64,000 nucleotides of DNA from Octopus vulgaris (lineage: Eukaryota). The position numbers were made by a program, and so were the translations under genes. The notes beneath the pieces are model-generated. The model saw only the letters and a list, made by a program, of their open reading frames with translations. It searched no databases and was not told the DNA's origin. The stretch covers positions 60,512,001 through 60,576,000 of the forward strand of contig OX597816.1 in assembly GCA_951406725.2 (NCBI GenBank), in the 5' to 3' direction. This document shows, one piece after another, positions 29,014 to 45,033 of this stretch. Within the stretch, counting starts at the first letter, position 1. Each line of letters begins with the position of its first letter.

Positions 29014-30460
29014 TGTATGTATATATATATATATATATATATATATATATATATATATATATACTCCAATGCTTGTTTCCATGTCTAGTTATATATAGGA
29101 TGTCAAATATTAATGTTAAATTAACTCAATATATTTATTTTTGCAAGGAAAATTAACAAAACGACTTCGTTGTTTCACAAATCACAGTCGTTACATTTGT
29201 CTTCAGACTCTGTGCATGTGTGAGAGCGTGCGTGTGTGTGTGTGTCTGTGTGCGTACGTGTGTGTGTGCGTGCGTGCGTGTTTATTGCCAATGTGAGACA
29301 GATAAGGGAGAGAGAGTTTCAAAGGTTAACAATGTATACTTTAATGCTGCTGTAGGGTAGCCCTAAGAGACTAAATGATTTAATCCAAAATGTTGATGAG
29401 AAACTTATCGGCGTCGTTGATAAAAAAAAAAGAGATTTAATGGAGGGAAAATAGAAGCTTTGAATGGTCCACAACGAAGTGAGTGGAGAAAAGGATTAAA
29501 AGAAAACAGGTCCTAGCAAGCATTTGAACAACATCTTCGTCTCGACTTGCTCTTCTGTGAGAATTAGTCAATAACGGTGACTGAAGTGTTGAAATATAAC
29601 GCATAAGAGAAAAGAAAGAGTAACGGAAAATTCGGGTAAGCGAACGAGAGAAAGAGCGGAGATACTAATGGAGAGAGAAGGAAAGAAAGAAAATGAAGAT
29701 AGGGAAAGTAGGAGGGAGTAAACAATTGATAAAATGCTAGAGCACAATAAAATCTAACACAGGAATTATGATAAGGAAATGAATAACGAATATGGAGCAG
29801 AAAAATCTGAAGTGAAAAGTGTAATGGAGCAGAGAGACAGAAAAAGACAAAAAAAAGACCGAAAGACGGGAGAGTGAAAGAGAGAGAAGCCGGACCACAG
29901 TTGAAGTTCATGTGTGTGTGTGTGGGGGGGTGTTTGTGTGTGTGTGTGTGTGTGTGTGTGTGTGTGTGTGTGTGTGTGTGTGTGTGTGAGTGTGTGTGTG
30001 TGCGCGTGTTCACTGCTTATTTAACTCGTTCAAGTCCCAATCAAAACGAATTTCATATATTTGATTCTACATTTAGTACTGATTCGCCTGCAATTAGTAA
30101 AGGTTTAGTTGCTATTCTTAACACTAGCATAAAATAAATACCCAAATTTTATTCAGGCACACACATATATGATATATATATATATATATATATATATATA
30201 TATATATATATATATATATATATATATATATATATATATATATAGCAATAATAATTCTTTAAACGAGATATAGACAGTAACTGCTTCATAACAAAAGGGA
30301 CATTAGCCATTTGAATGTGGCTAGGGACAGGGCAGGGCGGTGGGGGTGTTACTGATGCATTTAGCCCCAGGCGATCATCAACGTCACCAGATAGGCTTGA
30401 CACCATCACGGTGTCCTCTATCCTGCAAAGGGAGATCATTCCCCGAAGAAGCGGATGCCA

Positions 30461-30505
30461 CATACGGACCCAGGTTTCAAGGTGTTTGCCTCTCGTCAAC
30501 GTATC
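30461..30505 (-). ncRNA. Type I HHR (C3U variant), inverted copy
   Basis: Reverse complement of 30754-30798 with one outer stem I change. Confidence 0.7.
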
Positions 30506-30753
30506 GTAGGCACCGCCCCTCGACGAACGCCTGGGGCTAAATGCATCAGTAACACCCCCACCGCCCTGCCCTGTCCCTAGCCACATTCAAATGGCTAATG
30601 TCCCTTTTGTTATGAAGCAGTTACTGTCTATATCTCGTTTAGAGAATTATTATTGCTGTCGAACAGATTTTCGAAATCAGTAAATGTATTTACGTGAAAA
30701 TCTATATATAAATATCCTGCACAGAGAGTCGTTCGTCGAGGGGCGGTGCCTAC

Positions 30754-30798
30754 CATACGTTGACGAGAGGCAAACACCTTGAAACCTGGGTCCGTATG
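30754..30798 (+). ncRNA. Type I HHR (C3U variant) with extended stem I (~30738-30815)
   Basis: CATACG-TTGACGA-GAGG caaaca CCTT-GAAA-CCTGGG-TC-CGTATG; GUC site; distal TGCC/GGCA and GCGG/CCGC. Confidence 0.75.
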
Positions 30799-31112
30799 TG
30801 GCATCCGCTTCTTCGGGGAATGATCTCCCTTTGCAGGATAGAGGACACCGTGATGGTGTCAAGCCTATCTGGTGAGCGTTGATGATCGCCTGGGGCTAAA
30901 TGCATCAGTAACACCCCCACCGCCTTGCCCTGTCCCTAGCCACATTCAAATGGCTAATGTCCCTTTTGGTATATATATATATATATATATATATATATAT
31001 ATATATATATATATATATATATATATATATATATATATATATATACATATATATATATATATATATATATATATATATATATATATATATATATATACAC
31101 TCACACACACAC

Positions 31113-31420
31113 GTGGAGGCGCAATGGCCCAGTGGTTTGGGCAGCGGACTCACGGTCGTAGGATCGCGGTTTCGATTCCCAGACCAGGCGTTGTGAGTGT
31201 TTATTGAGCGAAAACACCTAAAGCTCCACAAGGCTCCAGCAGGGGATGGTGGCGATCCCTGCTGTACTCTTTCGCTACAACTTTCTCTCTCTCACTCTTT
31301 CTTCTGTTGGCCTGCTCGCTTAGCCAGCGGGATGGCGTCATTTGAAGGCTAAAACAATGCGAAGCACATTGTGACTAGCGATGTGTAGCAACATCTGATA
31401 GCCTGGTCGATCACGGTGAT
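31113..31420 (+). mobile_element. SINE family C
   Basis: Homologous to 19110-19393. Confidence 0.9.
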
Positions 31421-41739: not shown

Positions 41740-41925
41740 CATTTCAAAATATAACATGTGAATCGTTAGCGATTTTCTTCCTCCGTCTTCGTTTCTACCG
41801 GACTTTCCTCTGTTTCTGAAGAGTGTTGCTCGAAACTTTAAACCGTCTGCTAATATTTTACATGTACCACGTCCTCGCTTTGTTGTTTCTTTTTGTATTT
41901 GTTCTTCTTTTTTGGATTTACTATG
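41740..41925 (+). mobile_element. Older copy of the 16977 family; degenerate minimal HHR at 41812-41843
   Basis: GTTT-CTGAAGA-GTG ttg CTC-GAAAC-TTT-AAAC, followed by CCACGTCCTCGC.TTGTTGT as at 17154. Confidence 0.55.
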
Positions 41926-43319
41926 TATGTATGTATGTTTGAAAAAAGAAAGTACACAAATGGGTTGAGATTTTCTACAGCTGTTTCAGACGCGTTTTTT
42001 ATTGATGAATAAACTGATTCATCATGAAAAATAAGCGTTTTCTTCAGATGAATTAAAAACTTAGAATTCAAAATTTAAAATTTGGTTTAGAAAAAATATC
42101 AACATGTATGTATGTATGTATGTATGTATGTATGTATATATTATGTACTTGTGAGTGTATATGTATGTTCTGGGCAAGACTCTAAACTGCGTCCAGGCCT
42201 AGAGTCCCTGATTCGGGAGTGCTAGGCTTCTGAGAAATGTACAACTACCTCTTAACCAACATTGTTCTCAAGGTCCCGGTTATGAGTTAATTGGCATGTA
42301 AACATAAAGCACCGTGAGTGAGGGACACCATGCTGTTATCACAGCATCCTTCTAGGAGAGGAACTCTGATGTAAAACTTGCGGTTTCGCGAGATTGCCGG
42401 TCATCTCGCTCTAGCTTGTCATTAGGTACTAATCACGGAGATTCAGAGTGGTGCTCGTGTTGTACACGTGTTTATCACTCTTATCCATTGATGTACAGAT
42501 GTCTCTTTATGGTGAACCTATTTGTCATTCCATCTTGTTTAAAGTCTTATGGCGATGGGAAAGCGGTGGCGTGTACAGACCTAAGCAGTTAGAAGTGCAC
42601 AGTTACAAAGGAGCGAGACTTAATAGTCATCTTGGAGGTCAGGGATAGAAAGTAAAAAGATGCTAATTTTACTCAGCTAGCAAAAATGAGATGTACCTCT
42701 GGTTCAATAGGCCAGCCTTGTCCACATACGAAGTATCAAGTTAAATCTCACTGAAAACTATATTAAAGGGAGGCGTGTTTACGGAGTGCTCAACCACTTG
42801 TACGTTAATTTCACGGGTAGGCCGTTCTCTTGATCGGATCAACTGGACCAAAGGACGTCGCAACCGACGGAGTGCCCCATCCATGTATGTATACATCTTT
42901 GTATGTATGCATGTATTCTTTTATTTTTTTAGTTGTTTCTGTCATTTGGCCTCGGCCATGCTGGAGTGCCGCCTTGAAAGGTTTCAGTCAAACAAATTGA
43001 CTCAAGGACTTATTTTTTAGGCCTAGTACTTATTCTGGCGGTCTCTATAAGTGGTGATGGGGAACAAAAACAGACACGCACACACATAAATACATACATA
43101 TACACACATATATACATAGATACATACATACATATATATTATGTATATATATATATATATATATATATATCTGCCTTCGTCTTTTGTTTATTTTCATAAA
43201 GCTTCCCGTTATTTATATATATATATATATATATATATATATATATATATATATATGTATATATATATATATATGTATGCGTATATATATATGTATATAT
43301 ATATATATGTTTATTACCC

Positions 43320-43724
43320 TTTACTCTCTTTTACTCTTTTACTTGTTTCAGTCATTTGACTGCGGCCATCTTGGAGCACCGCCTATAATCGAGCAACTCG
43401 ACCCCGGGACTTATTTTTTTGTAAGCCCAGTACTTATTCTATCGGTCTCTTTTGCCGAACCGCTAAGTAACGGGGACGTAAACACACCAGCATTGGTTGT
43501 CAAGCAATACTAGGGGGACAAACACAGACACACAAACACACACACATATATACATATATACGACGGGCTTCTTTCAGTTTCCGTCTACCAAATCCACTCA
43601 CAAGGTTTTGGTCGGCCCGAGGCTATAGCAGAAGACACTTGCCCAAGGTGCCACGCAGTGGGATTGAACCCGGAACCATGTGGTTGGTAAACAAGCTACT
43701 TACCACACAGCCACTCCTGCGCCT
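43320..43724 (-). mobile_element. SINE family A, full length
   Basis: Reverse complement of family A with a (GAGTAAAA) tail; a further partial copy at ~42925-43080. Confidence 0.9.
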
Positions 43725-44571
43725 ATATATATATATATATATATATATATATATATATATATATATATATATATATATATATATATATACATATGTATAC
43801 ATTCACACAGACACATATATATATAACACCATATATGGATGTATGTATCTATGTATGTAATGTAAGTATGTATATATATATATATATATATATATATATA
43901 TTTATACAGTGAAAATTTCCAGAAAGGAAACATTATTATCAGCATTAATTGACGTAATTAGATTTGGTCTAAGCAGATGTTTTCTGCTAGGAATATAGAT
44001 AACATGATGACGTTGTTAAGTTCGTGAAACCCGATCCAACGTCTTTTGCAGCCTTCAGAATATTTTCCATTCACAGAACGCCTCGTTGTTGCTTCCGTAA
44101 AATACGCACACACGCACAGAAGATACTGCATGCGTGTGTGTGAGCGTGTGTGTGTGTGTGTGCGCGCGCGTGTGTGTGTGTGCGTGTATGGTGCATGTAT
44201 GTATGTGTGACGGTATATATATATATATATATATATATATATATATATATATAATTTGATATATATGTATATGCATCTATATGTGTGTGTCTCTATATAT
44301 ACATATACAATCACATACACACTTATACAATCACGCATTCATATGTATATATCTATCTATATCTATCTATCTACCTACTTACCTACCTACCTACCTACCT
44401 ACCTATCTATCTATCTATCTATCTATCTATCTATCTATCTATCTATCTATCTATCTATCTATCTATCTATCTATCTACCTATCTATCTATCTATCTATCT
44501 ATATATATATATATATATATATATATATATATATATATATATATATATATATATATATATATATATAGTTT

Positions 44572-45033
44572 GGGGCTACAAACTACAGTAGCATCGACCC
44601 TTAGGGGTTAGCCATATTTAAATGGCAAATATACTTCACGATGTGTTGCAGCTACTGTTTATAACTCGCTCTAAGATTTATTATTGCTTGTTTACACTTT
44701 TTCGATATCAGTGTCTGTACGATACTGGAAAAAGTATATGTATTTGTGAAGGGAACCTACTTTTCATCGACAACTGTGATTGTTACACGCCGATGACGGG
44801 TCCATATCCAGAATCTCGAGTCCGTGTGTATCATAAGTTGAAGACGGGAAGGATGGCTTCCCTTTGCAAATACTGATAGGGCACAGAAAGCGTGTCTATA
44901 GCCAGCTGGAGGAGGTGTCCTTCTCGGGCTACAAACTACAGTAGCATCCACCCTTAGGAGCTAGCCATATTTAAATGGCAAATATACGTCACGATGTGTT
45001 GCAGTTACTGTTTATAACTAGCTCTAAGATTTA
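44572..45033 (+). mobile_element. HHR-containing ~353-bp repeat, 1.3 tandem units, inside (TA)n; degenerate HHR at 44785-44827
   Basis: GGGCTACAAACTACAG at 44573 and 44926. ACACG-CCGATGA-cGGG tccata TCCa-GAAT-CTCGAG-TC-CGTGT. Confidence 0.8.

What the first reader, a model, noticed from the sequence alone, without database searches (positions are those of the whole stretch)
30244..45033. Two diverged ~355-nt hammerhead units (30244-30968 and 44572-45033) are one family with covarying structure
Seen: units of 359 and 353 bp share colinear blocks TAGCCA.ATT.AAATGGC.AAT, GCAG.TACTGT.TATA.CTCG...TTATTATTGCT, the HHR, GGGAA.GAT..TCCCTTTGCA and a small GACAC/GTGTC-type hairpin. The extended stem I differs in sequence but pairs in both (GCGG/CCGC + TGCC/GGCA + CATACG/CGTATG versus CAACT/AGTTG + GTGAT/ATCAT + ACACG/CGTGT), with an internal loop ~6 bp from the core. 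Both are more than one unit long and sit in (TA)n. Known: that internal loop is where type I HHRs make the loop II tertiary contact. Inference: an old family of small structured RNA replicons selected for length and fold, whose conserved non-ribozyme blocks may be promoter or RT-recognition signals.
Basis: partly seen in the sequence, partly recalled or inferred. Interest (0 to 1): 0.82.

Follow-up and report, generated by a model that had tools for sequence, protein, structure and literature searches.

The report
Penelope-copied hammerhead repeats sharing one fold
Two related non-coding jumping repeats of about 355 bases carry hammerhead-shaped self-cutting RNA motifs with altered catalytic cores, keep a predicted common fold along the whole unit, and end at two fixed points, so they are likely copied by a Penelope-type retrotransposon enzyme; the kind of element is known, and cutting is untested.

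Summary
Real, but a known kind. The two loci are copies of two sister families (majority sequences 60% alike) in a clade of at least ten subgroups of ~350-360-nt non-LTR retrozymes; one shared motif alone matches 2,239 times in the genome. Locus 1 is not simply 'more than one unit': it is a 289-nt inverted arm plus a 451-nt forward arm. Across 142 elements, 197 of 223 outer 3' ends lie at two fixed sites ~44 nt apart, and 60 of 61 classifiable two-armed insertions have one end at each: the Penelope-like-element (PLE) 'tail' footprint. Base pairing covaries in the ribozyme and outside it (tree-aware null 0/600), including a long-range helix enclosing start site 1. Neither window copy has a canonical core (U3·G8; C4 plus a private A15.1U), and a young 98%-identical subfamily spreads with a C3·A8 mismatch, so efficient self-cleavage may not be needed. 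No partner PLE with a matching terminal repeat was found; RNA evidence is lacking. The scan reported the two-site footprint and U3-A8 cores before on other DNA.

The parts
30244..30532 (-). Family A, inverted 5'-truncated arm (0.81 unit); its 3' end at 30244 is start site 2 (224 nt after the cleavage site)
30461..30505 (-). Type I hammerhead motif of the inverted arm (U3·G8 core)
30522..30532 (.). Inversion junction, 11-nt overlap of the two arms
30522..30972 (+). Family A, forward arm, 1.26 units of 359 nt; its 3' end is start site 1 (180 nt after the cleavage site)
30547..30626 (+). Predicted start-site domain: long-range helix P7 (30547-30553 with 30620-30626) enclosing a conserved hairpin and site 1 (30613)
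   Evidence: coordinates derived from unit positions
30713..30840 (+). Predicted rod: helix P4 (30713-30721 with 30832-30840) closing extended stem I
   Evidence: ruler
30754..30798 (+). Type I hammerhead motif: core 30760-30766 (U3·G8), hexaloop stem II, 2-bp stem III with self-complementary loop, predicted cleavage after 30792
30165..30243 (.). (TA)n target, left flank
30973..31097 (.). (TA)n target, right flank
44573..45037 (+). Family B element, 1.32 units of 353 nt, 3' end near start site 2; somewhat decayed copy
44586..44657 (+). Predicted helix P7 of the first unit (44586-44592 with 44651-44657); repeated at 44939-44945 with 45004-45010
44740..44873 (+). Predicted rod: helix P4 (44740-44753 with 44860-44873) closing extended stem I
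   Evidence: ruler
44784..44828 (+). Type I hammerhead motif: core 44790-44796 with family-typical C4, private A15.1U at 44814, predicted cleavage after 44822
44214..44567 (.). Simple-repeat/(TA)n left flank
45038..45120 (.). (TA)n right flank

Best explanation
These are genomic copies of two sister families of non-coding hammerhead repeats (non-LTR retrozymes) that are likely copied in trans by the reverse transcriptase-endonuclease of a Penelope-like element, which would nick (TA)n DNA and start copying the unit's RNA at two fixed internal sites held in a predicted conserved fold. Shown: the tandem unit, the two fixed 3' ends, the head-to-head arms ending one at each site, (TA)n targets, covarying helices, active PLEs in the same genome. 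Inferred: transcription gives multimeric or circular RNA; both target strands prime on the same RNA, one at site 1 and one at site 2; copying runs on through the ribozyme, giving arms longer than one unit; the P7 domain is the enzyme's recognition structure; the ribozyme, where it works, cuts as a dimer through its self-complementary stem III.
For: 197 of 223 outer 3' ends in 142 elements lie within 10 nt of two sites; of 81 two-armed elements 60 have one end at each site, 1 has both at site 2, none both at site 1, 20 have one unclassifiable end. This is the PLE tail, shown in vitro to be the stretch between two internal RT start sites (PMC11167929; PMC8557442). 112 of 179 outer ends of the A, B and pattern sets adjoin (TA)n. 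Two PLE families with RT and GIY-YIG domains have near-identical intact copies, (TA)n flanks, inverted arms and tails of about 40-46 nt. Structure: 71 pairs, 90.7% of 1,689 cells paired, 39 pairs with two-sided change, 0/500 shuffles; tree-aware null 0/600 for all pairs from three start tips, and 9, 24 and 17 of 600 for two-sided changes outside the ribozyme; P7 paired in 63 of 63 cells and predicted at 0.8-1.0 probability in four single copies. Stem III loop self-complementary in all ten majority sequences.
Against: No PLE with a homologous terminal repeat was found: blastn and a clade profile over 94 PLE-anchored loci gave only what look like separate insertions (six inspected; four not inspected), and single-sequence folds of the two PLEs' start regions showed no P7-like junction. 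One of four two-armed copies of PLE family n2 ends twice at site 2. 5' ends are not enriched at the cleavage site (7 of 235 within -3..+4, about 5 expected if uniform), so no footprint of cleavage is visible in DNA. Helices were chosen on the sequences they were tested on; P7 alone has too few two-sided changes to be significant in two of three runs (62, 12, 111 of 600). Subgroup F does not use (TA)n (1 of 44 ends), so more than one helper is likely.
Confidence: 0.85

Rival explanations
1. The units are solo or tandem terminal repeats (pLTRs) left by 5'-truncated insertions of an autonomous PLE that was not sampled; no separate non-coding RNA is mobilised.
For: Truncated PLE copies give the same tail and inversion pattern; Li et al. 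2026 find retrozymes homologous to pLTRs; only the best 150 of 6,136 endonuclease candidates were scored.
Against: Arms wrap through the unit boundary up to 5.0 units with no coding sequence; of 130 retrozyme loci only 4 had PLE protein similarity nearby and the three inspected are not continuous with the unit; long-range pairing between both ends of the unit covaries.
Confidence: 0.07
2. Viroid-like RNA replicon that multiplies RNA-to-RNA and is only occasionally reverse transcribed into the genome (strong form of the first reader's idea).
For: Compact predicted fold (z -3.7 to -6.3), conserved length, ribozyme; RNA-RNA replication was raised as a possibility for mussel retrozymes (PMC7229834 section 14).
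Against: Only one polarity has a ribozyme motif; thousands of genomic copies in nested subfamilies of different ages fit ordinary retrotransposition; young subfamilies spread with non-canonical cores.
Confidence: 0.04
3. Satellite-like DNA amplified by slippage or unequal exchange inside microsatellites; RNA structure is incidental.
For: Tandem arrays occur (up to 9 consecutive units listed); Li et al. 2026 invoke local amplification.
Against: Dispersed copies on many contigs, fixed 3' ends with random 5' ends, inverted arms and compensatory changes are not explained by DNA-level expansion.
Confidence: 0.03

Closest known systems
Metazoan non-LTR retrozymes (Cervera and de la Pena 2020, PMC7229834; Li, Clavereau and Pollet 2026, bioRxiv 10.64898/2026.07.22.740005)
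   Same: Non-coding tandem unit of 350-360 nt (mussel 350-390, axolotl 331/353), GC below 50% (0.38-0.47), one type I hammerhead per unit with 6-bp helix I, short self-complementary helix III, many dispersed copies, PLEs in the same genome.
   Different: In the passages read neither paper reports fixed 3' ends, inverted arms or covarying structure outside the ribozyme; here the window's families have non-canonical cores and would be missed by canonical descriptors; cleavage and circles untested here.
Penelope-like elements with tail and inverted 5' copy (Craig et al. 2021, PMC8557442; Frangieh et al. 2024, PMC11167929; Arkhipova et al. 2013, PMC3846280)
   Same: Two internal start sites, tail at one end only, head-to-head inverted truncated arm, AT-rich or (TA)n targets, hammerhead in the repeat.
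   Different: No ORF; the whole mobile unit is the repeat; tail ~44 nt (about 52 in subgroup F) against 30-40; no sequence likeness to the PLEs sampled.
Natural hammerhead core variants (Perreault et al. 2011, PMC3088659; Cervera and de la Pena 2014, PMC4209133)
   Same: U3-A8 covariation and a U4C variant are in print, as is the palindromic stem III for dimer cleavage.
   Different: Here the unpaired or wobble states C3·A8 and U3·G8 are fixed in young, amplified subfamilies derived from U3-A8 relatives; I found no such report in searches.

Membership tests
Non-LTR retrozyme | Short (150-450 nt) non-coding unit in tandem copies | tested here: met
   359/353 nt; arrays to 5.0 units without ORF
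Non-LTR retrozyme | Type I hammerhead fold in every unit | tested here: met
   Stems I-III paired in 99.3% of 144 cells across subgroups; sister subgroup Y matches RF00163
Non-LTR retrozyme | Canonical catalytic core | tested here: not met
   Not met by the two window families (U3·G8; C4, and A15.1U in the window copy); met by 8 of 10 subgroup majority sequences
Non-LTR retrozyme | Self-cleavage of the transcript | not testable with these tools
   Needs an in vitro assay
Non-LTR retrozyme | Expressed as linear and circular monomer RNA | tested here: inconclusive
   No holder on record as RNA, contigs only
Non-LTR retrozyme | Co-occurrence with autonomous PLEs | tested here: met
   Two families with intact 781- and 775-aa RT/GIY-YIG frames
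PLE-mobilised sequence | Two fixed 3' ends (tail), present at one end only | tested here: met
   197 of 223 ends; 60 of 61 classifiable two-armed copies
PLE-mobilised sequence | Head-to-head inverted 5'-truncated arm | tested here: met
   81 of 142 elements, including the window's locus 1
PLE-mobilised sequence | Homology to the terminal repeat of an autonomous PLE | tested here: not met
   None among 94 PLE-anchored loci; sample dominated by two families, so other PLEs are not excluded
Autonomous PLE | ORF with RT and GIY-YIG endonuclease | tested here: not met
   No such ORF in or continuous with the elements
Viroid-like RNA replicon | RNA-to-RNA replication, both polarities present | not testable with these tools
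   No stranded raw reads available

The most novel reading that the evidence does not exclude
In this retrozyme clade the trait under selection for spreading is a covarying RNA domain (helix P7 and the hairpins around the two start sites) that a Penelope-type enzyme recognises by shape, while ribozyme cutting is dispensable or supplied in trans: subfamilies with C3·A8, U3·G8 or C4 cores amplified recently, and the self-complementary stem III could let a competent sister RNA cut them. The clade would be a natural mutational scan that defines a portable ~120-nt PLE priming signal and tests whether retrozyme circles are really the transposition intermediate.
Probability: 0.3. Interest if true: 0.72.

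Novelty: new member of a known kind. Interest (0 to 1): 0.48.

Why it matters
How animal retrozymes move, and what a PLE reverse transcriptase recognises, are open questions in the papers read (PMC7229834 discussion; PMC8557442; bioRxiv 2026). This clade gives the insertion footprint in numbers, a predicted structure at the start sites supported by compensatory changes, natural core variants, and active PLE proteins in the same genome, so the existing in vitro PLE assay (PMC11167929) could be applied directly. The class of element itself is not new.

Tried and rejected
Rfam scans: no hammerhead hit in the window; microRNA hits are microsatellite artefacts. Coding relic: a start codon in the conserved block suggested a PLE ORF remnant, but differences between A and B fall evenly on codon positions (hand count); my two translations were out of frame and were not used. 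Partner PLE: six close neighbours inspected are separate insertions, often sharing one (TA)n run; a Pfam accession guess did not exist. Expression: no RNA holder listed; contigs of four coded runs cover the unit but show nothing on strand, ends or level; not used as evidence. Enrichment of 5' ends at the cleavage site: not seen. Units within one insertion versus between insertions: more alike in A (median 2 vs 9 differences in 150 nt) but not in B or the C3·A8 group; inconclusive on circle versus multimer. Target-site-duplication search was loose and without control (2/25, 4/28, 7/64, 13/25); not relied on. Dimer energies of stem III were not computed. Four papers on core mutants were not held, so the size of the loss for C3·A8 and U3·G8 rests on recall and on the passages cited.
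Full report
1. Observation. The forward repeat spacing is 359 nt at locus 1 and 353 nt at locus 2; the two monomers align with 220 identities in 371 columns, local score 128 against 23.6 +- 3.4 for 1000 dinucleotide shuffles, none reaching it. Missed: 30244-30532 is the reverse complement of part of the unit, so locus 1 is a head-to-head pair of a 289-nt arm and a 451-nt arm with an 11-nt junction overlap and two hammerheads. 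Locus 2 is a single arm of 1.32 units.

2. Copy number and clade. DNA searches of the own genome (2.8 Gb) gave 1,995 and 3,550 first-look candidates, 40 scored each; these are not copy numbers. One motif shared by both families matches exactly 2,239 times against 0 for the reversed control. From top hits and pattern hits, 251 of 389 profile hits that covered at least 190 positions were clustered; 242 were put in ten subgroups (A 69, B 40, Y 38, G 16, D 7, E 10, K 8, H 13, F 38, I 3), 9 singletons left out. Majority sequences are 50-95% alike, A-B 60%. Y is very young and canonical (97-100% to its reference in most copies).

3. Insertion footprint. In 142 elements (25 top A, 28 top B, 64 from the pattern search, 25 top F; duplicate loci removed), 197 of 223 outer 3' ends lie within 10 nt of two sites, 180 and 224 nt after the cleavage site in A, about 173 and 218 in B. 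Of 81 two-armed elements, 60 end once at each site, 1 twice at site 2, none twice at site 1, and 20 have one end that could not be classed. (TA)n adjoins 39/46, 19/40, 54/93 and 1/44 ends. The top-hit sets are biased to the query; of the 70 pattern loci fetched, 30 were the first in genome order and 40 were chosen by me, partly for variants. 5' ends are scattered, 7 of 235 at the cleavage site. The window's locus 1 follows the rule (site 2 left, site 1 right). PLE papers describe the inverted 5' copy and a 30-40-nt tail at one end only (PMC8557442, passages; PMC3846280, passages), and the tail is the stretch between two internal RT start sites on both target strands (PMC11167929, parts 1-2 of 4).

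4. Structure. On an unedited alignment of 26 natural copies, 71 pairs in 15 helices are formed in 90.7% of 1,689 cells, 39 pairs show two-sided change, 0/500 shuffles reach this, and slid controls fall to 35-47%. A tree-aware simulation on the ten majority sequences, started from three observed tips, gave 0/600 for pairing and for two-sided changes over all pairs; outside the ribozyme domain 0/600 for pairing and 9, 24, 17 of 600 for two-sided changes. Caveats: the helices were picked on these sequences, and the rate estimates make the pairing null lenient. Four natural monomers folded singly converge on one plan (circular z -3.7, -6.0, -6.3, -5.6; 40 shuffles): a rod made of stem I and helix P4 closing a multi-branch with two hairpins, the P7 junction and a spacer hairpin (P4 partners in nine subgroups, the script failing on the tenth). 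P7 (7 bp, 63 of 63 cells paired, three pairs with two-sided change) encloses site 1; site 2 follows the next hairpin. RNAalifold with default settings on A1 did not predict P7; with RIBOSUM scoring on the majority sequences it did. The stem I internal loop is three bases opposite one U, 6 bp from the core, in all ten subgroups, and the stem III loop is self-complementary in all ten, the known sign of dimer cleavage (PMC4209133 and PMC3088659, passages).

5. Ribozyme cores. Eight subgroups are canonical; A and B are not. Among the first 100 of 345 matches of an A-lineage pattern I counted by hand 60 U3-A8, 30 U3·G8, 10 C3·A8 and no C3-G8; among the first 100 of 224 B-type matches 75 have C4 and 25 U4. 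In a tree of 43 units, both the C3·A8 group (7 rows, 100/100, mean identity 98.1%) and the window's U3·G8 group (14 rows, 91/88, 95.6%) sit inside U3-A8 relatives; holding C3·A8 with the canonical outgroup is rejected (p-AU 1e-82; group named after seeing the tree). C3·A8 has 26 exact motif matches at 19 loci, with normal ends and (TA)n flanks. U3-A8 is a published active variant and U4C is reported to lower activity considerably in vitro yet allow viroid infection (PMC3088659, section 8 and passages; PMC4209133). Single changes at 3 or 8 abolished activity in a PLE ribozyme and did not affect insertion in vitro (C3G, G8C). That C3·A8 and U3·G8 are impaired is inferred, partly recalled, and untested.

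6. Helper. A GIY-YIG search gave 6,136 candidates, 150 scored. Two families dominate, n1 (781-aa frame) and n2 (775-aa frame, 4,270-nt unit, 138 of 141 scored hits 100% identical over 272 aa), both with RT and GIY-YIG and a cysteine motif before the endonuclease as described for Neptune/Nematis (clade not tested by tree). They have (TA)n flanks and tails of about 40 and up to 46 nt; 3 of 4 two-armed n2 copies end once at each site. No sequence likeness to the retrozyme unit was found. They are candidates, not proven helpers.

7. Comparison and novelty. The element class is published: PMC7229834 (passages, sections 14 and 17) and bioRxiv 10.64898/2026.07.22.740005 (parts 1-3 of 5; supplements not available and may list related families). 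Earlier notes of this scan report the same footprint and U3-A8 cores, in this genome too; I had reached these results before those look-ups. What this work adds is the depth of covariation outside the ribozyme and the young subfamilies with unpaired or wobble cores.

8. Verdict. Observation partly confirmed; new member of a known kind; PLE-mobilised retrozyme 0.85; interest 0.48.

Noticed in passing
window 8644-10378: A third, unrelated retrozyme-like element: 494-nt unit, 2.5 units on the minus strand plus a 500-nt forward arm in (TA)n, canonical hammerhead core with a long stem II, tail about 100 nt; 1,505 first-look candidates, top copies 97-100% identical.
   Followed up: partly
L191-L204 (n1) and L208-L222 (n2): Two very young PLE families with an upstream ORF before the RT/endonuclease frame; no canonical hammerhead found in the scanned loci of either.
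   Followed up: partly
L117:4308-5960; L206:9100-9480: Retrozyme and PLE copies share one (TA)n run, side by side or tail to tail, as separate insertions.
   Followed up: yes
L296, L299, L300: Copies intermediate between subgroups D and A already carry U3, with A8 or G8; they branch below the A clade.
   Followed up: partly
L225-L249 (subgroup F): Older subgroup with a longer tail (about 52 nt), non-microsatellite targets and frequent short duplications, suggesting a different helper.
   Followed up: partly
window 20038-23418, minus: Broken long reading frames of a non-LTR retrotransposon-like element; two pieces gave no Pfam hit.
   Followed up: no
window 53492-53959 and 59558-59998: Fragments resembling mariner-type transposases (resemblance recalled, not tested).
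   Followed up: no
window 31114-31420; 6479-6931; 24143-24493: A tRNA-like SINE next to locus 1 (recalled resemblance) and a 184-nt tandem repeat family with several dispersed copies.
   Followed up: no
window 30700-30712 and 44734-44745: A TA-rich block about 60 nt upstream of the core is kept in all subgroups; possibly a TATA-like promoter element, partly overlapping helix P4.
   Followed up: no
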